Shown: positions 14,159 to 22,443, counted from the stretch's first letter. The stretch: 64,000 bases of DNA from Candidatus Thorarchaeota archaeon (GCA_003345595.1 PRDI01000058.1:15983-79982); one strand, 5' to 3'. The notes: a model not told the origin generated them from the sequence alone. Translations and numbers: made by a program.

Positions 14159-14612
14159 CTGCTGAAGAGGCTGGCTCGCCTTTGCGCCCCACGCGGTAGT
14201 TGTTGGAACAAACCATGCTCACTGCTTCGTTGTTCACAGCCTCTACCTCATGGTGGCATAATGGTTTGGTGCTGACACCATTTAAATACTACACTGTTGA
14301 CGCAATAAACCATTGATGATGGGACCTTCGCACACAGGTGCACATCCAACGGACTAGGATTGACGAACTGAAGGTGAGATACCTGCTGAGTCCTTGCGTC
14401 GGGAATACTTAACGATAAAGCGACACCGTAGCCTTTCACAAGAATTTCATCATTGGTACCAATAAAAAGCGCAGCCACATCATGGGGTCACGTGTTGAGG
14501 TCGCTTCATGTTACCGGTCACGCAGGCAGGGGTGTAGGTGTGCGACAGTCAAAGATATTACGAAGCTGATTCAGAACCTGCAGTATCAACTAACGACAGG
14601 AGACAGGTCAGG

Positions 14613-15494
14613 ATGGATATCAAGAAGATTGCCGTGCTTGGCGCAGGCCAGATGGGCAACGGTATAGCTCATGTCTGTGCTCAGTCAGGCTATGAAGTCA
14701 AGATGCGAGATATAGAGCAACAGTTCCTCGACAAGGGCCTTGCAACGATAAAGGGAAACCTAGACCGCATGCTGAAGAAGAGCAAGATTACTCAGGTGGA
14801 CGCGGATGCAACATTGCGTCGCATAAAGTGCGTTCTCGACCTTAAGGAGGCCGTGAAGGACGCTGATCTGGTCATTGAGGCGATTCCCGAAATAGTCAAG
14901 CTGAAGTTGGACACTTGGAAGGACGTGGACGCTGCCGCCCCTGCCAGCGCCATATTGGCGTCGAACACTTCGAGCATCAGTATCACCCAAATGGCGGCTG
15001 TAACAAAGCGGCCTCAGAAGTTCATAGGCATGCACTTCTTCAACCCAGTGCCTGTCATGGGACTTGTTGAAATCATTAAAGGGCAAGCCACCGACGACGC
15101 AACTGTCGATGTGATAAAGGCTGTCGCGACTAAGGTCGGCAAGCAGACAGTCGTTGTTAAGGAAGCGCCAGGGTTCGCAGTCAATCGATTGCTGGTGCCC
15201 GCTTTGAATGAGGCTGTCTTTGCGATTCAGGAAGGCATCACGACAGTTGAAGACATGGACCTAGCCATCAAGCTCGGGTTGAACTGGCCAATGGGTCCGC
15301 TGACACTTCTTGACTTCGTGGGTCTAGACACGGCATTGTACATCGCCGATTATTTCGTGGACGAGTTCAAGGACAGCAAGTACAGGGCACCTGCCTTGTT
15401 GCGCAAGATGGTGCGTGCAGGATGGCTGGGCAGGAAGTCCGGAAGGGGCTTCTATGACTACTCAACCAATCCTCCCAAGCCGGGTAGGTTCTAA
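14613..15494 (+). CDS. hbd: 3-hydroxybutyryl/3-hydroxyacyl-CoA dehydrogenase
   Basis: GAGQMG NAD-binding motif, ASNTSS, GMHFFNPVP, PGFAVNRL, PMGPLTLLDFVGLD, GRKSGRGFY. Start moved to ATG 14613. Confidence 0.95.
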   Translation: MDIKKIAVLGAGQMGNGIAHVCAQSGYEVKMRDIEQQFLDKGLATIKGNLDRMLKKSKITQVDADATLRRIKCVLDLKEAVKDADLVIEAIPEIVKLKLDTWKDVDAAAPASAILASNTSSISITQMAAVTKRPQKFIGMHFFNPVPVMGLVEIIKGQATDDATVDVIKAVATKVGKQTVVVKEAPGFAVNRLLVPALNEAVFAIQEGITTVEDMDLAIKLGLNWPMGPLTLLDFVGLDTALYIADYFVDEFKDSKYRAPALLRKMVRAGWLGRKSGRGFYDYSTNPPKPGRF

Positions 15495-16119: not shown

Positions 16120-19100
16120 TCATTTCGTGAGCTCTTCTTCTCTGAGCTTCTTCTTGAAGAGTTTCATTGCCACAGTCAGAGGCAGCTCATCTCTGAATTC
16201 TACCCATTTTGGCACGGCATATGGCTTCACTCTCTCCTTCAGGTATTCGATGATATCCTGCTCTGAAACTTTACCTCTATATTCAGGTTTCAGCTGGACA
16301 AAAGCCTTCACCCTTTCACTTCCAGGTCTTTCAGAATCAGGAACCCCTATCACACCTGCAACATCGACGGCTTCGTGTGTGTGAAGGATGTCATCAATGA
16401 CCCTACTGTACACCTTGTTACCCGAAACATTGATCATGTCTTTTAGCCGGTCTACTATTCTGAAGTAGCCGTCACTATCCATCTCGACAATATCGCCCAT
16501 AGGCAACCATCCGCCCTCTCTTAGTCCACTTCCAGGAGTTGGGAAGTACCCCTTCATGACCTGCGGTCCACGGATCCAGATTTCTCCTCGCTCGTTAAGC
16601 GGAAGCTCTTTTCCAGTTTCGGGATCGACGATTTTGACCTCTGTATCAGGTATGGGAATGCCGATGCCCCTCTTTGTTTCGGTCATGAAACCAGTGACCT
16701 TCGAGAGCGCTGACACGTTGATTGTTACGATTGCTGATGACTCTGTTGCGCCATAGCCTTCGCCCATGGGCACTCCCGTCTTCTTCTCAAACTCCGCAGC
16801 AAGATCGGCAGGGAGTGCCGCTGCACCTGAGTAATAGAATATCTGTCCCTTCTTCAGGTCCATCTTGCTCAGCATTGTATAGTGAGCTGGGACTGCGAAT
16901 ACAACGAAAGGACGTTGCTTGTTGATTATATCTGCAATCCTCGAGATGTCACGCGGGTCAACCAGGAATATCTTCATACCCCATGACACGCATGCATGCA
17001 CGGCCCAATGGCCGTACGCGTGGAAGATGGGCACACATATCAGACCTGCGCTCTTTCCGATGATTCCCTCCTTCAGAGGGTCCATCATCCATTGAATTGA
17101 CTGTATGACGGCACTTGTCAGATTGTAGTGTGTCAACAAGGTCCCTTTTGGAAGCCCTGTGGTGCCTCCCGTGAAGGGCAGCAGGGCGATATCCTCCTTC
17201 GGGTAGATTTCGACAACACCTTCATGCGGCTCGTGCTGTTCTATCAAATCATTGAGAAGGAAGTAGTTGTCATCATCAATCTGCTCTGTGTCAGGATATT
17301 CATAGTCTGGGAATACCCTTGTAGGGGTGTAGATAACGATTCTCACGCTCGTTTCGGGTTTGACTCGATTGATTCTTTCAAGACGTCTGGATGAGCATAC
17401 CACGATCTCAGCTCTACTCTCTTTGAGTTCATACAGCAAATCGTCGTCCTTGTGCATAATGCTTAGAGGTACATGAATCGCTCCAATCTTCATTGCTGCA
17501 TAGTCAGCTATTATGAATTCAGGACATGATGGAAGTACAGTGGCAATTGCGTCCCCCTTCTTCACACCAAGGGCTACGAAAGCTGATGCAAGCTTGTCAA
17601 CCTTCATTTTCAGCTCATGATATGTCAAATGCTCATCCAAGTACTCACATGCTTCAATATCAGGGAAATTCGTTGCAGAGTCCTCTAGAAACTTGTAGAC
17701 ATTTATCTCAGGATACGGAGCCATCGAATGCTTGAGTTTGAAAGGACCAATTTGGTAGCCACTCAACCACGGCTTGTCACCAAAGATTTCTGCCGATGTT
17801 CTAGATACTGCTGATGCCATCTCCTTTTCAGAAGTAGCCATCTGTTTTGTTTGTGCCCCCGTAGTTCCTCTCCCAAGATCCCCATATTCAGGGATCGAAT
17901 CAGCAACCCATGCAAGATCAAGTTCCTTTAGTTTTTCTCTCGAGGGTCTTCCTTGATGATCCCATCCGCGATACTTGTAGTATGCATCTAGGAGAACATC
18001 CAGTTTCACAACATGCCCCTTCGCTGGCCCTTCGGGCATTGGATCCTCTAGTAGTCGCGGAGGTAGACTGTCATCTCTTCGTCCAAACCCCTCCCTCAAA
18101 ATGTATGCCCTCTCCAGGTTATAGATTCTCTCACCTGTCTTGCGAAAGTCATCTGCAGAGAACTCATAGCCCATCAGTGTGGAAATCAGTTTCGCCCAGT
18201 CTTCGGCAGTGAGCACCATCCCCATGAACTTGCAGCCACCAATGGCGTCAAAGATGCCGAATGCATCCTCGAAGTTCTTGACGACTAATGCTATCTCTGG
18301 GATTTCCATTAGTGGATCGCCCACATCCGCATTCTCAACGATCATGAAAGGCATGGAGAGAAAAGCAGGTCCCTCAATATACGCTGTTATGTGATCTCCG
18401 CCTCGATTCGCAACAGCATAGGCAAGTCCCGTTATCTTGGCCGCTCTGCTGTCATAACCCGGGAGCTCTAGTCCCTTCACATGCATCGCGAATCTCTCAG
18501 ACCCATTACCTAGTTTCTCAGCCATCCTCATGGTCCCTTCAGCAAGGAGATTCCCTATTCCCTCACGTTTTCCAATCTTGTGAACAATGTCAACGATAAG
18601 TTGCGCATTTCCCCAGGAGAAGTCCATGCCACCAATGTCGTCGTCTTTCAGGATGCCGCGTTGTCTGCATTCCATGGCAAAGCCAACGCTATTGCCCGCA
18701 GAGATTGTGTCAATGCCATACTCATTGCACAGGAAGTGCGCGAGGGTGATGGCTTCTAGGCTGTCCACACCGCACATAGTCCCAAATGAGCTAATAGTTT
18801 CGTATTCCGGGCCCTCTCCCTTGCTCTTGAAAGGTCCCTCCTTGATTTCGGCAATCCTCCCGCAATGGATGGGACAAGCAAAGCAGGGCTTTCGTCTTAC
18901 TAGGATGCTATCATTGATTGCCTGCCCGTTGATTTTTTCTGCGTTCTCAAAAACGCCGGTCTGCCAGTTTCTGGTCGGGATGCCTCCCTTGACATTGACC
19001 AGGTCAACCATTGTAGCTGTGCCATAAACCTCTAGGGTCATCTTCAGAAGGCTTTGATTCACCCAGTCGAACCTTTGCTTTGCCTCCTGTCTGTATGCGT

Positions 19101-19755
19101 CTGGGTCTGCAATGGCGATTTCCAGAGTCCCCTTTGATGCTATTGCCTTCAGATTCTTTGAGCCCATGACCGCGCCAACGCCGCACCGTCCCGCTGCGCG
19201 ACCCCAGTTCTCCTCATCGCAGTCGTTCATGATTGCAGCGTACTTTACCAGATTCTCCCCTGCGATACCTATGCAAGCGACATTGAATTTGGGTCCGTGC
19301 CTCTCTCTGAGGATTCTAGTGGTTTCGGAGGTGTTCTTTCCCCATATCTTCCCTGCATCGAACAGCTCCGCCTTTCCATCTTCAGTGAGGAGGTAGACCG
19401 GACTTGGCGCTCTTCCTTCGAATATTGCACCATCAAAGCCGGAGCGTTTGAAATCTCTCCCCCAGAATCCTGCGGAATTTGCCTGGCCCCATCCATTCGT
19501 GAGGGGTGACTTTGTTACCACACTGTATCGTCCTGTGCTGGGCGAACTGGTGCCTGTAAGAGGGCCGGTCATGAAGATGAGCTTGTTCTCAGGACCAAGG
19601 GGGTCAATGCCTTTTTCAGTTTCCTCAAGTAGGATCTTGGTAGCTAGTCCGGCACCACCGAGGTATTTTCGTAAGGTTTCTTCATCAGGGAATTCCTCCG
19701 TTATTGTAGATGTAGTCAGATTGATGCGCAGGATCTTTCCCATGTAGCCATACAT
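16120..19755 (-). CDS. Fusion protein: tungsten aldehyde:ferredoxin oxidoreductase (N-terminal) + long-chain acyl-CoA ligase/AMP-binding enzyme (C-terminal)
   Basis: AOR motifs: AAGRCGVGAVMGSKNLKAI, CFACPIHCG, EYET, DTIS, RGGDH, DAIGGCKF. Adenylate-forming motifs: FTGGTTGLPKG, EGYGATE, RGPQVMKGY, GDI..D.DGYF.IVDRLKDMI, PLTVAMK. Single uninterrupted 1211-aa frame. Confidence 0.92.
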   Translation of the reverse strand: MYGYMGKILRINLTTSTITEEFPDEETLRKYLGGAGLATKILLEETEKGIDPLGPENKLIFMTGPLTGTSSPSTGRYSVVTKSPLTNGWGQANSAGFWGRDFKRSGFDGAIFEGRAPSPVYLLTEDGKAELFDAGKIWGKNTSETTRILRERHGPKFNVACIGIAGENLVKYAAIMNDCDEENWGRAAGRCGVGAVMGSKNLKAIASKGTLEIAIADPDAYRQEAKQRFDWVNQSLLKMTLEVYGTATMVDLVNVKGGIPTRNWQTGVFENAEKINGQAINDSILVRRKPCFACPIHCGRIAEIKEGPFKSKGEGPEYETISSFGTMCGVDSLEAITLAHFLCNEYGIDTISAGNSVGFAMECRQRGILKDDDIGGMDFSWGNAQLIVDIVHKIGKREGIGNLLAEGTMRMAEKLGNGSERFAMHVKGLELPGYDSRAAKITGLAYAVANRGGDHITAYIEGPAFLSMPFMIVENADVGDPLMEIPEIALVVKNFEDAFGIFDAIGGCKFMGMVLTAEDWAKLISTLMGYEFSADDFRKTGERIYNLERAYILREGFGRRDDSLPPRLLEDPMPEGPAKGHVVKLDVLLDAYYKYRGWDHQGRPSREKLKELDLAWVADSIPEYGDLGRGTTGAQTKQMATSEKEMASAVSRTSAEIFGDKPWLSGYQIGPFKLKHSMAPYPEINVYKFLEDSATNFPDIEACEYLDEHLTYHELKMKVDKLASAFVALGVKKGDAIATVLPSCPEFIIADYAAMKIGAIHVPLSIMHKDDDLLYELKESRAEIVVCSSRRLERINRVKPETSVRIVIYTPTRVFPDYEYPDTEQIDDDNYFLLNDLIEQHEPHEGVVEIYPKEDIALLPFTGGTTGLPKGTLLTHYNLTSAVIQSIQWMMDPLKEGIIGKSAGLICVPIFHAYGHWAVHACVSWGMKIFLVDPRDISRIADIINKQRPFVVFAVPAHYTMLSKMDLKKGQIFYYSGAAALPADLAAEFEKKTGVPMGEGYGATESSAIVTINVSALSKVTGFMTETKRGIGIPIPDTEVKIVDPETGKELPLNERGEIWIRGPQVMKGYFPTPGSGLREGGWLPMGDIVEMDSDGYFRIVDRLKDMINVSGNKVYSRVIDDILHTHEAVDVAGVIGVPDSERPGSERVKAFVQLKPEYRGKVSEQDIIEYLKERVKPYAVPKWVEFRDELPLTVAMKLFKKKLREEELTK

Positions 19756-19840: not shown

Positions 19841-20125
19841 ATGAAGGTGAAAGTGAAATTCTTCGCGCATCTCAGTGAGCTCACAGGTAAGAAACCAGTA
19901 TTCGAGGTCGATGTTGAGGAGGGCGCCACCGTTTCCATGCTCTTGGACAGTCTACTCGTCGACCGGAGGATCAGGGATGCCCTGCTGGACGAGAACCAAG
20001 AGATCAGGTCCAATATAACTGTCCTCAAGAATGGCAGAGAGATAAAACTCCTGGCGGGAATGGAAACCAAGCTGAGTCATGGTGACGAGCTAGCTGTGTT
20101 TCCCATGCTTGTCGGAGGTCGATAA
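19841..20125 (+). CDS. moaD: MoaD/ThiS/SAMP family ubiquitin-like sulfur carrier
   Basis: MKVKVKFFAHLSELTG...ITVLKNGREI...GDELAVFPMLVGGR*. Divergent from the AOR fusion gene. Confidence 0.85.
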   Translation: MKVKVKFFAHLSELTGKKPVFEVDVEEGATVSMLLDSLLVDRRIRDALLDENQEIRSNITVLKNGREIKLLAGMETKLSHGDELAVFPMLVGGR

Positions 20126-20240
20126 GTGGTGCATCGAATACCCTAGACCCCTTCAAGCTCAATTTATCAGTAGGACATTCCTGTTACAAGAGCATTCAAT
20201 CGAATTACGATGACCAGTGCTATTCGAAGGATTGATCACT

Positions 20241-20690
20241 ATGCCGAGATTCATGTCAGCTGAATGGCTGAATCTATACAAGAATGCGCTCAACAGCAAC
20301 GATGCCTATGCAAGGGCTGCTTCGTGGTGGACTGGCGACTTCATTTTCGTTGTCAGGGCAAGCGGCAAGTTGGACCATGATATTTTTGCTTTCATCGGGT
20401 TGACTCACGGTAAGTGCACCGGTGTGAAGCCAATAAAGGGAGAAGACGAATACCAAGTTGTGAAACCTGGTGAGGGTGCGAGCAGTAAGGACAAGGTTGC
20501 CGTAGAGTATGTCTATGAGGCCAAGTATGATGCTTGGCTGAGAATCCTGAGAGGCGAGTTGGATCCTGTCCGCGGGCTTCTCAGCGGCCAAGCAAGAATC
20601 GTTGGAGATATGGCCAAGATTCTCAAGGCTACGGACGCTGCGAAGGAGCTAGTACGAACATCCACCCTGATCGACACGGAATTCTACTAA
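20241..20690 (+). CDS. SCP2 sterol/lipid-binding domain protein
   Basis: FMSAEW..Y...LN; WLRILRGELDPVRGLLSGQARIVGDMAKIL is a typical SCP2 C-terminal signature. Start moved to ATG 20241. Confidence 0.8.
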   Translation: MPRFMSAEWLNLYKNALNSNDAYARAASWWTGDFIFVVRASGKLDHDIFAFIGLTHGKCTGVKPIKGEDEYQVVKPGEGASSKDKVAVEYVYEAKYDAWLRILRGELDPVRGLLSGQARIVGDMAKILKATDAAKELVRTSTLIDTEFY

Positions 20691-20710: not shown

Positions 20711-21121
20711 ATGGATGAAGCAGCGCGGGAAATCCTCTTCCATACATTCAAGGCCGTAATAGAAGATGTCATTGCTGACAAGCGGAAGAATCCCAAGAAC
20801 ACCACGACTCTTGACGAATATCGAGCCAGGATAAACATAGGTCTGCATGTGGAAGAGGAATTCATATTGTGGGTGAATCTTGTTGCTGAAGGCGGCAAGT
20901 ATGTCGTCAACAAAGGAAAGCTTGATGACTACGATCTACAACTCATATCAGACCCCGAGGATATGATGTACTTCACTAACAGGAAATACTCAACGCTGAA
21001 GATGATGTTCACAAAGAACAGATTCGGAGAGAGAAGGCTGCTTTTCAGTGGAGGAACGTCTGGCAGAAACTACGGGAAACTGTTGAAGCTCCCCAAGGTG
21101 CTAGTCTTGGATGGCAAATAG
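20711..21121 (+). CDS. Divergent SCP2-like protein
   Basis: Helix, then beta sheet (WVNLVAEGGKYVVNKG..DYDLQLISDPEDM), then a helical tail matching SCP2 topology. Co-oriented with the SCP2 gene. Confidence 0.45.
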   Translation: MDEAAREILFHTFKAVIEDVIADKRKNPKNTTTLDEYRARINIGLHVEEEFILWVNLVAEGGKYVVNKGKLDDYDLQLISDPEDMMYFTNRKYSTLKMMFTKNRFGERRLLFSGGTSGRNYGKLLKLPKVLVLDGK

Positions 21122-21579: not shown

Positions 21580-22443
21580 ATGTCCGGTCATGTGGTGCAG
21601 ATGAGGTACGAAGAGAGCAGCTACACAGGATACGATGGCATGCAGATGTTCATGTCGGTATGGACTCCCGACGACGAACGGCCCCGTGCTCTCATGGTAG
21701 CTATTCACGGGCTTGGAAGTCATGGGTCTGCTCTGACTAACGTCGGCGTCTATCTCAGTGAGCGGGGCATTGCAGTGTTCGCCCCTGACATGAGGGGCTT
21801 TGGTCACTATTCGGGACTGAAGGGGCACGTGATGAACTTCGATGAATACATCGAGGACATCGATAGCGTGGTGACTCAGGTCAAGATGATGCACCCGTCC
21901 AAGCTGACCTTCCTGTTTGGCCACTCGCTGGGGGGTCTTGAAGCGATAAGATATGTCACTACGTATCCCGGCGATGTCGATGGTCTGATTCTATCCTGCC
22001 CTGCGGTTTCTGAACATGTCGAGATCGGGAAGGCAACCAGAGTGGCGGGCTCATTCCTTTCACTACTAAACATTAAGCGATACTTCGGCTGGCCTACCCA
22101 GTTCCAGTACGCCTCACATGACCCAGACGTCGTTCAGGAGCATGAGAACGACGTGCTTAGGTTTGACAAGGTGACACCCCGACTTGGAATGTCTGCACTG
22201 AAAGCTACCCGCAAAGCGTTCGAGTCTGCATCCGGAATAGTGCTCCCAGTCCTTGTGCAGCAGGCGGGTGACGATGTCTTCGTTATACCTGAGAAGACCA
22301 AGTTGTTCTTCGACAGCATTGGTGGATGTGACAAGAGCTGGAAATTGTATGAGGGTCTCTATCACGAACTTCACAATGAAAATGCGAGGGAGCAGGTACT
22401 TGGCGACATGTACGCATGGCTTGAGAAGCGCCTGACGGGATAG
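21580..22443 (+). CDS. Alpha/beta hydrolase (monoacylglycerol lipase / lysophospholipase family)
   Basis: IHGLGSH, DMRGFG, nucleophile elbow GHSLGG, acid GDD, catalytic His YHELHNE. Confidence 0.92.
   Translation: MSGHVVQMRYEESSYTGYDGMQMFMSVWTPDDERPRALMVAIHGLGSHGSALTNVGVYLSERGIAVFAPDMRGFGHYSGLKGHVMNFDEYIEDIDSVVTQVKMMHPSKLTFLFGHSLGGLEAIRYVTTYPGDVDGLILSCPAVSEHVEIGKATRVAGSFLSLLNIKRYFGWPTQFQYASHDPDVVQEHENDVLRFDKVTPRLGMSALKATRKAFESASGIVLPVLVQQAGDDVFVIPEKTKLFFDSIGGCDKSWKLYEGLYHELHNENAREQVLGDMYAWLEKRLTG

What the first reader, a model, noticed from the sequence alone, without database searches (positions are those of the whole stretch)
16120..19755. Single-chain tungsten aldehyde:ferredoxin oxidoreductase - acyl-CoA ligase fusion
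Seen: one uninterrupted 1211-aa frame. A complete AOR (4Fe-4S CxxCxxxC plus the later Cys in DAIGGCKF; pterin-binding AAGR..GAVMGSKNLKA) is joined by a ~35-aa linker (GRGTTGAQTKQMATSEKEMASAVSRTS) to a complete adenylate-forming enzyme retaining the P-loop, GYGxTE, GD/DR hinge and the A10 Lys. Established: AORs interconvert aldehydes and free acids with ferredoxin, and ANL ligases activate acids to CoA thioesters. I am not aware of a characterised fusion of the two. Inference: channelled aldehyde to acid to acyl-CoA conversion, with ATP-driven removal of the acid pulling the redox step, or a route for reducing hydrophobic acids.
Basis: partly seen in the sequence, partly recalled or inferred. 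Interest (0 to 1): 0.85.

Follow-up and report, generated by a model that had tools for sequence, protein, structure and literature searches.

The report
Tungsten aldehyde oxidoreductase–acyl-CoA ligase fusion
This is a real single protein joining a tungsten aldehyde-oxidising enzyme to an acyl-CoA-forming enzyme; in most Asgard archaea the same two enzymes are neighbouring genes with a lipid-carrier gene, so the fusion marks an unstudied route that probably turns greasy aldehydes into acyl-CoA.

Summary
Window 16120-19755 (-) is one uninterrupted 1211-aa ORF. It holds AFOR_N, AFOR_C, a 42-50-aa variable linker, AMP-binding and AMP-binding_C. All cofactor and catalytic residues checked are invariant in 36 fused homologues. 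It is not an assembly artefact, because 27 of the 84 loci fetched show the same open frame.

The main new result is evolutionary. The fusion is the joined form of a conserved aor→acs gene pair. That pair is adjacent on the same strand in 53 further loci of Loki/Promethearchaeota, Hermod-, Hod-, Heimdall- and other Thorarchaeota, and in two Anaerolineae. An SCP2-fold lipid-carrier gene accompanies it in 75 of 85 loci. A tree requires two separate changes of the fused/split state, one at a Thorarchaeota clade and one at a Hodarchaeota clade, most simply two fusions.

The most likely function is ferredoxin-linked oxidation of a hydrophobic aldehyde to the acid, which the tethered ligase captures as acyl-CoA. 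This is inferred, not shown. No paper describing the pair or the fusion was found. I rate it a new variant of a known kind, of moderate to high interest.

The parts
16120..19755 (-). Whole fusion ORF, 1211 aa (P0001), ATG start, TAA/TAG/TGA-free frame
   Evidence: the open frame in the assembly is 1217 codons
19126..19740 (-). AFOR_N domain (residues 6-210), the tungstopterin-covering N-terminal domain
   Evidence: Pfam PF02730, E 5e-77. It aligns end to end with PfAOR 1aor. Foldseek TMt is 0.94 to 1aor.
17914..19047 (-). AFOR_C domains 2 and 3 (residues 237-614). They carry the 4Fe-4S cysteines C291/C294/C298/C508, catalytic E319 and H455, and the pterin motifs NEYGIDT and DAIGGCK.
   Evidence: Pfam PF01314, E 3.8e-138. 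Residues were mapped through the 1aor alignment and are invariant in A1.
17770..17907 (-). Inter-module linker (residues 617-662). It is polar, its length is conserved (42-50 aa) and its sequence is not.
   Evidence: Mean column identity is 0.37, against 0.90 for the AOR half and 0.84 for the ACS half. Met is not conserved. AF2 pLDDT is 26-33 with no secondary structure over residues 626-659.
16543..17688 (-). ANL large N-terminal domain (AMP-binding, residues 690-1071), with P-loop TGGTTGLPKG 862-871 and GYGATE 1000-1005
   Evidence: Pfam PF00501, E 2.2e-83. The best solved relative is 3g7s, A. fulgidus FadD-1. Motifs are invariant.
16171..16398 (-). ANL small C-terminal domain (AMP-binding_C, residues 1120-1195), followed by the A10 lysine K1198
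   Evidence: Pfam PF13193, E 1.8e-13. K1198 is invariant. The model superposes best on thioester-forming conformers: 5bsr, 4g37 and 4eat at rmsd 3-4 A, against about 10 A for adenylating conformers.
19841..20125 (+). Divergently transcribed ThiS/MoaD-like beta-grasp protein (94 aa, ends ...VGGR). It is probably linked to tungstopterin synthesis or is a SAMP-type modifier.
   Evidence: Pfam ThiS, E 1.1e-10. Sequence. Orthologues sit beside the pair or fusion in 27 loci.
20217..20690 (+). SCP2-fold lipid-carrier protein (157 aa), the most constant partner of the AOR/ACS pair
   Evidence: The family profile hits T. thermophilus SCP2 (2cx7/1wfr) at E 2e-26. AF2 pLDDT is 91.6. Foldseek TMt is 0.88 to 2cx7. 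It is present in 75 of 85 loci.
20711..21121 (+). Conserved 136-aa protein of unknown fold, co-transcribed with the SCP2 gene
   Evidence: Cluster c2 occurs in 39 loci. There is no PDB profile hit, no Pfam hit and no hhalign similarity to the SCP2 profile.
14538..15494 (+). 3-hydroxyacyl-CoA dehydrogenase, convergent with the fusion. This is local context only and is not conserved next to the fusion elsewhere.
   Evidence: Pfam 3HCDH_N and 3HCDH. It is absent from the conserved neighbour clusters.
21580..22443 (+). Alpha/beta hydrolase (Hydrolase_4, lysophospholipase/monoglyceride-lipase-like). This is local context only.
   Evidence: Pfam PF12146, E 7.8e-61. It is not among the conserved neighbour clusters.

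Best explanation
The ORF encodes a genuine bifunctional enzyme of a Thorarchaeota archaeon. Shown steps and inferred steps are marked.

1. The N-terminal 616 residues are a canonical PfAOR-type tungstopterin/[4Fe-4S] aldehyde:ferredoxin oxidoreductase. It oxidises an aldehyde to the free carboxylic acid and passes two electrons to a separate ferredoxin. Fold and residues are shown; activity is inferred.
2. A disordered tether of about 46 residues holds a FadD-like AMP-forming acyl-CoA ligase next to it. The ligase adenylates the nascent acid and thioesterifies it to CoA. Motifs are shown; activity is inferred.
3. The net reaction would be aldehyde + Fd(ox) + ATP + CoA -> acyl-CoA + Fd(red) + AMP + PPi.
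4. The constant SCP2-fold partner indicates a hydrophobic substrate or product, such as a fatty or isoprenoid aldehyde, acid or acyl-CoA. That carrier would deliver the substrate or take the product away towards beta-oxidation. This step is inferred.
5. Fe-ADH neighbours in some lineages would supply the aldehyde from an alcohol.
6. The fusion is the covalently joined form of an ancient aor-acs(-scp2) operon. The join most simply arose twice.
7. Its advantage is probably proximity capture of a poorly soluble, membrane-active acid and fixed 1:1 stoichiometry. It is not a thermodynamic 'pull'.
For: AOR half:
- It is closest to bona fide AORs: 1aor at 550 bits, against FOR at 400 and BamB at 229.
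- Foldseek TMt is 0.92-0.94 to AORs.

Conservation:
- All FeS, pterin and catalytic residues, and ANL motifs A3/A5/A7/A8/A10, are invariant across 36 fused homologues of 62-91% identity.

ANL half:
- It is fused through its N-terminus, so its mobile C-terminal subdomain stays free.
- The model sits in the thioester-forming pose.

Rosetta-stone evidence:
- 53 loci have aor immediately followed by acs on the same strand, with gaps of 0-90 nt. 27 loci are fused.
- The tree needs 2 changes of the fused/split state, forced by starred branches.

Partners:
- An SCP2-fold partner is present in 75 of 85 loci, including the two Anaerolineae pairs.
- Fe-ADH is adjacent in 11 loci, including all three Hod fused loci.
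- A MoaD/ThiS-like gene is adjacent in 27 loci.

Linker:
- Its length is conserved, its sequence is free and it is predicted to be disordered.

Precedent:
- Consecutive AOR then CoA-ligase steps by separate enzymes are described for phenylacetaldehyde -> phenylacetate -> phenylacetyl-CoA in Aromatoleum aromaticum (PMC9765128).
Against:
- The substrate is unknown. The ligase half falls below every NCBIfam equivalog cut-off; the best is PRK06187 at 358 bits against a cut-off of 476.
- Oxidising an aldehyde with AOR and then spending two ATP equivalents is costlier than a CoA-acylating aldehyde dehydrogenase.
- The beta-oxidation and lipase genes next to the fusion in this window are not conserved neighbours elsewhere.
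- The long disordered linker argues against a sealed channel.
- AF2 inter-module geometry could not be inspected. Only pTM 0.80 was returned.
- The genome has 11 AOR paralogues, so specificity cannot be inferred from family membership.
Confidence: 0.6

Rival explanations
1. Fusion without coupling. The two modules are active but work on unrelated substrates, or merely need co-expression. The join is a neutral stop-codon loss in a tight operon, with no kinetic advantage.
For: - In split Thorarchaeota and Anaerolineae loci a single in-frame TGA, or a few codons, separates aor and acs. A one-step stop loss would therefore fuse them.
- The linker is unconserved in sequence and predicted to be disordered.
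- Most lineages manage with separate genes.
Against: - The pair is kept adjacent and co-oriented across very divergent Asgard lineages and in Chloroflexota, always with the same orthologous ligase.
- Fusion most simply arose twice and has persisted through 62-91% divergence, with linker length held at 42-50 aa.
- The two enzymes share exactly one metabolite, the free acid.
Confidence: 0.15
2. Reverse, fermentative direction. The AMP-forming ligase runs backwards (acyl-CoA + AMP + PPi -> acid + CoA + ATP). The AOR half reduces the acid with reduced ferredoxin to the aldehyde, and a neighbouring Fe-ADH reduces that to an alcohol. This would be an ATP-conserving electron sink like the AOR route to ethanol in acetogens.
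For: - Fe-ADH is adjacent in 11 loci.
- Pyruvate-phosphate dikinase, an AMP/PPi-handling enzyme, lies about 1.5 kb downstream in 28 Loki-type loci.
- AORs are reversible (established knowledge).
- PPi-dependent reversal of an AMP-forming acetyl-CoA synthetase has been proposed for Syntrophus aciditrophicus (from my own knowledge, not checked here).
Against: - Acid reduction by ferredoxin is endergonic at standard conditions and needs high acid and very low aldehyde concentrations.
- Archaea normally use ADP-forming acyl-CoA synthetases for this ATP-yielding step.
- An SCP2 partner suggests long hydrophobic chains, for which alcohol fermentation is not known.
- The PPDK neighbourhood co-occurs with tRNA synthetase genes, so it looks like plain synteny.
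Confidence: 0.12
3. A tungsten-dependent 'carboxylic acid reductase'. The ANL half activates the acid (acyl-AMP or acyl-CoA), and the AOR half reduces the activated acyl group to the aldehyde with ferredoxin. ATP hydrolysis would drive an otherwise uphill reduction.
For: - The architecture is superficially analogous to CAR, an adenylation domain joined to a reductase.
- One AOR-family member, BamB, does bind a CoA thioester (4z3w is listed).
- AF2 pTM of 0.80 for the 1200-aa chain hints at a defined inter-module arrangement.
- A clade-specific 5-residue insertion (NDCDEENWGRAAGR) sits beside the pterin-binding RAAGR motif.
Against: - There is no carrier (PP-binding) domain and no conserved Ser in the linker.
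- The AOR half keeps the canonical PfAOR catalytic set and is far closer to PfAOR than to BamB.
- Acyl-AMP is not normally released by ANL enzymes.
- No AOR is known to reduce an activated acyl group.
Confidence: 0.07
4. Assembly or gene-calling artefact. The AOR and ligase would really be two genes, wrongly joined by a missed stop or frameshift at the junction.
For: The window comes from a fragmented MAG of 129 contigs and 83% completeness. Most relatives have two genes.
Against: - The identical fused frame is open in 27 of the 84 fetched loci, from different studies and assemblers.
- The fused sequences form well-supported clades.
- The linker evolves as coding sequence of constrained length.
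Confidence: 0.01

Closest known systems
Pyrococcus furiosus aldehyde:ferredoxin oxidoreductase (PfAOR, PDB 1AOR), with the AORs of Clostridium autoethanogenum (9G7J) and Aromatoleum aromaticum (8C0Z)
   Same: The N-terminal 616 residues align end to end with 1aor (550 bits), with Foldseek TMt 0.94. They share the CxxCxxxC...C cluster ligands, Glu313/His448 equivalents and the DxxGL(C/D)x-type pterin motifs.
   Different: - The chain is joined covalently to an ANL ligase.
- The PfAOR inter-subunit metal ligands (Glu332, His383) are replaced by Leu and Val, read from the alignment.
- A 5-residue insertion (CDEENW) precedes the RAAGR motif. It is shared with the paired split orthologues but absent from the nearest unpaired AORs P0049-P0051.
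FadD-type AMP-forming fatty-acyl-CoA ligases (A. fulgidus FadD-1, PDB 3G7S; T. thermophilus LC-FACS, 1ULT)
   Same: Residues 657-1211 cover a whole FadD-like enzyme with all ANL core motifs. The fold matches ANL ligases in the thioester-forming conformation.
   Different: Its score is below every NCBIfam equivalog or subfamily cut-off, so the substrate is undefined. The N-terminus is tethered to an AOR.
Sequential but separate AOR and CoA-ligase steps in anaerobic phenylalanine catabolism of Aromatoleum aromaticum (AorABC, then phenylacetate-CoA ligase)
   Same: The order of reactions is the same: aldehyde -> acid by a tungsten AOR, then ATP-dependent CoA activation (PMC9765128).
   Different: - The enzymes are separate there.
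- That AOR is a three-subunit NAD/benzyl-viologen-linked type.
- The substrate is aromatic.
- No SCP2 partner is present.
Carboxylic acid reductases (CAR; A-T-R architecture)
   Same: An ANL adenylating module is covalently linked to an enzyme that acts at the acid/aldehyde redox level.
   Different: CAR has a phosphopantetheinyl carrier domain and an NADPH-dependent SDR reductase, and it runs acid -> aldehyde. Here there is no carrier domain and the redox partner is a W-pterin/FeS enzyme.
Eukaryotic SCP2-containing beta-oxidation enzymes (SCPx thiolase-SCP2, MFE-2) and bacterial/archaeal stand-alone SCP2 (T. thermophilus 2CX7, A. fulgidus AF_1534)
   Same: An SCP2-fold lipid or acyl-CoA carrier is associated with acyl-CoA-metabolising enzymes.
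   Different: Here SCP2 is a separate small gene in an operon with an AOR and a ligase. It is not fused to a thiolase or dehydrogenase.

Membership tests
Tungsten/molybdenum aldehyde:ferredoxin oxidoreductase family (AOR sensu stricto) | AFOR_N plus AFOR_C domains over the full length | tested here: met
   Pfam scores are 258.6 and 461.3 bits, far above the cut-offs. The region aligns with 1-602 of the 605 residues of 1aor. TMt is 0.94.
Tungsten/molybdenum aldehyde:ferredoxin oxidoreductase family (AOR sensu stricto) | Four Cys ligands of the [4Fe-4S] cluster (PfAOR C288, C291, C295, C494) | tested here: met
   C291, C294, C298 and C508 align to them and are invariant in 36 homologues.
Tungsten/molybdenum aldehyde:ferredoxin oxidoreductase family (AOR sensu stricto) | Active-site Glu313/His448 and the two pterin-binding DxxGL(C/D)x motifs | tested here: met
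   E319 and H455 are invariant. The second motif, DAIGGCK, is intact. The first reads NEYGIDT (Asp->Asn), as also seen in the solved AOR 9mqx.
Tungsten/molybdenum aldehyde:ferredoxin oxidoreductase family (AOR sensu stricto) | Bound W (not Mo) bis-pyranopterin, and aldehyde-oxidising activity with ferredoxin | not testable with these tools
   This needs metal analysis and an anaerobic assay.
ANL superfamily, acyl-CoA synthetase branch | Core motifs A3 (P-loop), A5 (GYGxTE), A7 (GD), A8 (hinge D-R...G-x-K) and A10 (catalytic Lys) | tested here: met
   T862GGTTGLPKG, G1000YGATE, D1088, D1102-R1103...G1112-N-K1114 and K1198 are all invariant.
ANL superfamily, acyl-CoA synthetase branch | Assignment to a defined substrate class (NCBIfam equivalog) | tested here: not met
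   The best model, PRK06187, scores 357.8 bits against a cut-off of 476. All other models are also below their cut-offs.
ANL superfamily, acyl-CoA synthetase branch | CoA thioester formation, rather than adenylate hand-off to a carrier protein | tested here: inconclusive
   The nearest relatives are CoA ligases, and the model adopts a thioester-forming pose. No assay was possible.
Carboxylic acid reductase (CAR, A-T-R) | Phosphopantetheine carrier (PP-binding) domain with a conserved Ser, plus a C-terminal NADPH reductase domain | tested here: not met
   Only four Pfam domains are found, with no PP-binding or NAD_binding_4 domain. The linker has no conserved Ser.
Class II benzoyl-CoA reductase BamB-type AOR | Closest similarity to BamB | tested here: not met
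   BamB 4z3w scores 229 bits and covers only residues 2-433, whereas PfAOR scores 550 bits over the full length.
SCP2 sterol/lipid carrier fold (partner gene 20217-20690) | Alpha/beta SCP2 fold with a hydrophobic tunnel | tested here: met
   The family profile hits 2cx7/1wfr at E 2e-26. AF2 pLDDT is 91.6. Foldseek TMt is 0.88 with probability 1.00. Ligand binding was not tested.

The most novel reading that the evidence does not exclude
The AOR-ligase fusion, and the conserved split pair, would be a ferredoxin- and ATP-dependent 'tungsten carboxylic acid reductase'. The ligase half activates a fatty or isoprenoid acid. The AOR half, which carries a clade-specific insertion next to its pterin-binding motif, reduces the activated acyl group to the aldehyde. 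That aldehyde would supply fatty aldehydes or alcohols (with the Fe-ADH and SCP2 partners) for lipid synthesis in Asgard archaea. This would be a new reaction type for the AOR family and a carrier-free alternative to CAR.
Probability: 0.07. Interest if true: 0.9.

Novelty: new variant of a known kind. Interest (0 to 1): 0.58.

Why it matters
Three reasons.

1. Tungsten AORs are usually treated as stand-alone, broad-specificity 'aldehyde scavengers' whose physiological substrates are mostly unknown. Here one orthologous AOR lineage is tied to a specific ligase and a lipid carrier. The tie rests on operon conservation across the Asgard phylum and Chloroflexota, and on two separate fusions. That gives a concrete, testable physiological role: entry of hydrophobic aldehydes or alcohols into acyl-CoA metabolism, with reduced ferredoxin as a bonus.

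2. About a quarter of the sampled Asgard genomes carry the module (79 of 301). It is therefore relevant to how these sediment archaea, the closest known relatives of eukaryotes, use lipids and alcohols.

3. A natural single-chain aldehyde -> acyl-CoA catalyst, or its reverse, would interest biocatalysis groups already working with AORs and CARs.

Tried and rejected
I relied on independent assemblies instead.
- BamB-like (CoA-ester-acting) AOR: rejected, because the AOR half is much closer to PfAOR.
- CAR-type carrier shuttle: rejected, because there is no PP-binding domain or conserved Ser.
- Independent internal start at MATSEKEM: rejected as a conserved feature. Half of the Thor homologues have no Met in the linker. 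Hod fusions do keep the ancestral ligase start (..EKMTYAEKPW), so internal initiation cannot be excluded there.
- Programmed read-through of the in-frame TGA in split loci: considered, because L020, L026, L049, L069, L047 and L048 have a single TGA between the frames. It is not supported. Sister loci have extra stops or different frames, and an ATG (in L047/L048 also a Shine-Dalgarno-like GGAG) precedes the ligase.
- Other fused families: the exhaustive search of 1.84 billion representatives gave no protein matching both halves among the top 150.
- The 136-aa partner as a second SCP2: not supported by profile-PDB search or hhalign.
- Local 3-hydroxyacyl-CoA dehydrogenase and lipase as part of the system: they are not conserved next to the fusion elsewhere, so they are only weak context.
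- Loki-type neighbours (PPDK, PheRS, TyrRS-like, HAD): judged to be plain synteny.
- Literature: eight full-text searches found no description of the fusion or the pair.
- InterPro architecture tables could not be queried.
- AF2 inter-domain contacts could not be examined, because no coordinates or PAE were returned.

Full report
**Observation**

The interval 16120-19755 contains one uninterrupted 1211-codon frame, but on the minus strand. The plus strand of the same interval is full of stops.

Pfam places four domains:
- AFOR_N at residues 6-210.
- AFOR_C at residues 237-614.
- AMP-binding at residues 690-1071.
- AMP-binding_C at residues 1120-1195.

NCBIfam ligase models extend the ligase match back to about residue 660. 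The unassigned spacer is therefore about 45 residues.

**The two halves**

The N-terminal half aligns end to end with Pyrococcus furiosus AOR (1aor, 550 bits). It is much closer to true AORs than to formaldehyde oxidoreductase (400 bits), WOR5 (273 bits) or the benzoyl-CoA reductase subunit BamB (229 bits, partial).

Reading the 1aor alignment gives these correspondences:
- The cluster cysteines correspond to C291/C294/C298/C508.
- The catalytic Glu313 and His448 correspond to E319 and H455.
- The second pterin motif (DSAGLCL) corresponds to DAIGGCK.
- The PfAOR-specific bridging-metal ligands Glu332 and His383 are not kept.

The C-terminal half is a complete FadD-like ANL enzyme. Its best solved relative is A. 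fulgidus FadD-1, 3g7s. It is below every NCBIfam cut-off, so its substrate class is undefined.

In an alignment of 36 full-length fused homologues (62-91% identity), every one of these residues is invariant. So are the ANL motifs: P-loop 862-871, GYGATE 1000-1005, D1088, D1102-R1103 and K1198. Both modules are therefore under purifying selection for catalysis.

**Not an artefact**

A word-indexed search of 5.8 billion proteins returned about 45 clusters with the same four-domain architecture:
- Thorarchaeota MAGs at 78-91% identity.
- Hodarchaeota at 62-63% identity.

They come from NCBI, JGI, ENA and Logan assemblies. A scan of species-representative genomes, followed by my own tblastn and ORF check, found the fused frame open in 27 of the 84 loci fetched. 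Two apparent 'AOR-only' cases on chromosome-level MAGs are 100-N scaffold gaps.

**The key finding: a conserved gene pair that was fused twice**

In 53 further loci the same orthologous AOR (55-77% identity) is followed by the orthologous ligase (46-73% identity). The two genes are on the same strand, 0-90 nt apart. These loci come from:
- Promethearchaeota/Lokiarchaeia.
- Hermod-, Hod- and Heimdallarchaeota.
- Other Thorarchaeota, including SMTZ1-45 and AB_25.
- Two Anaerolineae bacteria.

In several split loci only one in-frame TGA separates the two frames, so a single stop loss could create a fusion.

I built a maximum-likelihood tree of concatenated AOR+ligase sequences (68 rows). It groups the Thor fused proteins in one clade (100*) next to the split Thor clade. 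It places the Hod fused proteins in a separate clade (100*), sister to a split Heimdall locus (97*). The fused state needs two changes, and starred branches force both.

In a sample of 301 genomes drawn evenly from the phylum:
- 79 carry the orthologous ligase.
- About 20 of those have it in a frame of about 1200 codons.
- One genus (g44) holds both fused and split forms.

An exhaustive HMMER search of 1.84 billion cluster representatives showed no other protein matching both halves among the best 150. No distant fused family is visible there.

**Partners**

I clustered all ORFs within ±8 kb of the 85 loci. The conserved neighbours are:
- One dominant partner, a 149-157-aa protein present in 75 loci. 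The remaining ten are mostly contig-limited. Its position varies by lineage:
  - It lies immediately after acs in Loki-type and Anaerolineae operons.
  - It lies immediately before aor in split Thor operons.
  - It is divergently transcribed in the fused Thor loci (window 20217-20690).
- A conserved 136-aa protein of unknown fold, in 39 loci (window 20711-21121).
- A ThiS/MoaD-like β-grasp protein, in 27 loci (window 19841-20125, ending VGGR).
- An Fe-alcohol dehydrogenase, in 11 loci, including all three Hod fused loci.

The dominant partner has the SCP2 fold:
- Its family profile hits Thermus SCP2 (2cx7/1wfr) at E 2e-26.
- Its AF2 model has pLDDT 91.6.
- The model superposes on 2cx7 with TMt 0.88.

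The 3-hydroxyacyl-CoA dehydrogenase and the lipase-like hydrolase flanking the fusion in this window are not conserved neighbours elsewhere.

**Linker and model**

The linker (residues 617-662) keeps its length (42-50 aa) but not its sequence. Its column identity is 0.37, against 0.90 for the AOR half and 0.84 for the ligase half. Half of the homologues have no Met in it, so the MATSEKEM methionines are not a conserved internal start. Hod fusions still carry the ancestral ligase start motif MTYAEKPW.

An AF2 model of residues 1-1200 was built from 132 aligned rows. It has mean pLDDT 83.5 and pTM 0.80.
- Residues 626-659 are unstructured, with pLDDT 26-33.
- The AOR half matches solved AORs at TMt 0.92-0.94.
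- The ligase half fits thioester-forming conformers best, at rmsd 3-4 Å against about 10 Å for adenylating conformers.
- No PDB chain covers both halves.

Coordinates and PAE were not available. The relative orientation remains untested.

**Mechanism**

Under canonical chemistry the only metabolite the two enzymes share is the free carboxylic acid. The AOR makes it from an aldehyde, and the ligase consumes it. The conserved order, the repeated fusion and the SCP2 partner therefore point to this sequence:
1. A hydrophobic aldehyde is oxidised to the acid, with electrons passing to ferredoxin.
2. The acid is converted to acyl-AMP.
3. The acyl-AMP is converted to acyl-CoA.

In some lineages an Fe-ADH would feed in the corresponding alcohol. 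SCP2 would handle the lipid. The order of steps is inferred, and no activity has been measured.

By established redox potentials, aldehyde oxidation by ferredoxin is already strongly exergonic. The plausible benefit is proximity capture of a poorly soluble, membrane-active acid together with fixed stoichiometry.

Three rivals remain:
- A neutral fusion without coupling.
- A reversed, ATP-conserving acyl-CoA → acid → aldehyde → alcohol sink.
- A CAR-like reduction of an activated acyl group. This last one is disfavoured by the absence of any carrier domain and by the canonical AOR active site.

**Known or new**

The sequences are in public databases under generic names such as 'aldehyde ferredoxin oxidoreductase C-terminal domain-containing protein'. 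Eight full-text searches found no paper describing the fusion, the aor-acs pair or its SCP2 partner.

The nearest described biology is the consecutive action of a separate tungsten AOR and a phenylacetate-CoA ligase in Aromatoleum aromaticum (PMC9765128).

Earlier unchecked notes from this scan independently recorded AOR-ligase-SCP2 strings in other anaerobes. That agrees with the pattern I established here from the loci themselves.

The window's own genome has 11 AOR paralogues, of which only this one is fused.

**Verdict**

This is a real, conserved, twice-evolved fusion of two known enzyme types. It exposes an uncharacterised but widespread AOR-ligase-SCP2 module. It is a new variant of a known kind, and its interest is moderate to high.

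Noticed in passing
proteins P0052-P0112 (not in the window): There is a second, much larger family of AOR fusions. These are proteins of about 830 aa that join an AOR to an OMPdecase/3-hexulose-6-phosphate-synthase-type domain (PF00215 and related). They occur in Methanomethylicaceae, Nezhaarchaeales, Thermoprotei and Hodarchaeales, and are 41-48% identical to this AOR half. The architecture suggests formaldehyde hand-over between reverse RuMP and a FOR-like tungsten enzyme.
   Followed up: no
L020, L026, L049, L069 (split Thorarchaeota); L047, L048 (Anaerolineae): Exactly one in-frame TGA separates the AOR and ligase frames, with 13-16 sense codons up to the conserved ligase N-terminus. This is a one-mutation path to a fusion. 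Read-through or recoding is not supported but was not strictly excluded.
   Followed up: partly
Loki-type loci, e.g. L023:14687-17380, L081:13225-15918: Pyruvate-phosphate dikinase (about 900 aa) lies about 1.5 kb downstream of the aor-acs-scp2 string in 28 loci. PPDK consumes AMP + PPi, the by-products of the ligase. The region also carries tRNA-synthetase genes, so this may be plain synteny.
   Followed up: no
G000 whole genome: The MAG (2.73 Mb, 129 contigs, 83% complete) encodes 11 full-length AOR-family ORFs. One more starts about 15 kb beyond the high-coordinate end of this window on the same contig (C58:79958-80938). This is a strong expansion of tungsten enzymes in one Thorarchaeon.
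   Followed up: no
window 20711-21121 (+) and orthologues (cluster c2, 39 loci): A conserved 136-aa protein is always next to the SCP2 gene. It has no Pfam, PDB-profile or hhalign match. Its C-terminal ...KNRFG.R.L.FKGG..GRN.GKLLKLP segment is nearly invariant. It is a candidate second carrier or adaptor.
   Followed up: partly
window 19841-20125 (+): The ThiS/MoaD-like protein ends in ...VGGR, with one residue after the di-glycine, whereas the one orthologue read (L083) ends in GG. It may need C-terminal processing like SAMP or ubiquitin-type modifiers.
   Followed up: no
L009 (labelled Candidatus Hermodarchaeota), L082 (labelled Bathyarchaeia): The record labels disagree with the tree. L009 sits deep inside the fused Thorarchaeota clade, and L082 sits among Asgard pairs. 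This suggests taxonomic mislabelling or mis-binning of these MAG contigs.
   Followed up: no
P0001 residues 178-185 (window about 19201-19224, minus strand): A clade-specific 5-residue insertion (NDCDEENWGRAAGR, against PfAOR NDG-----HRAAGR) lies directly before the pterin-phosphate-binding RAAGR motif. All ligase-paired AORs share it, but the nearest unpaired AORs (P0049-P0051) lack it.
   Followed up: partly
P0202: This is a 992-aa representative protein whose first about 590 residues are an AOR, followed by about 400 further residues of unknown nature. It may be yet another AOR fusion architecture.
   Followed up: no
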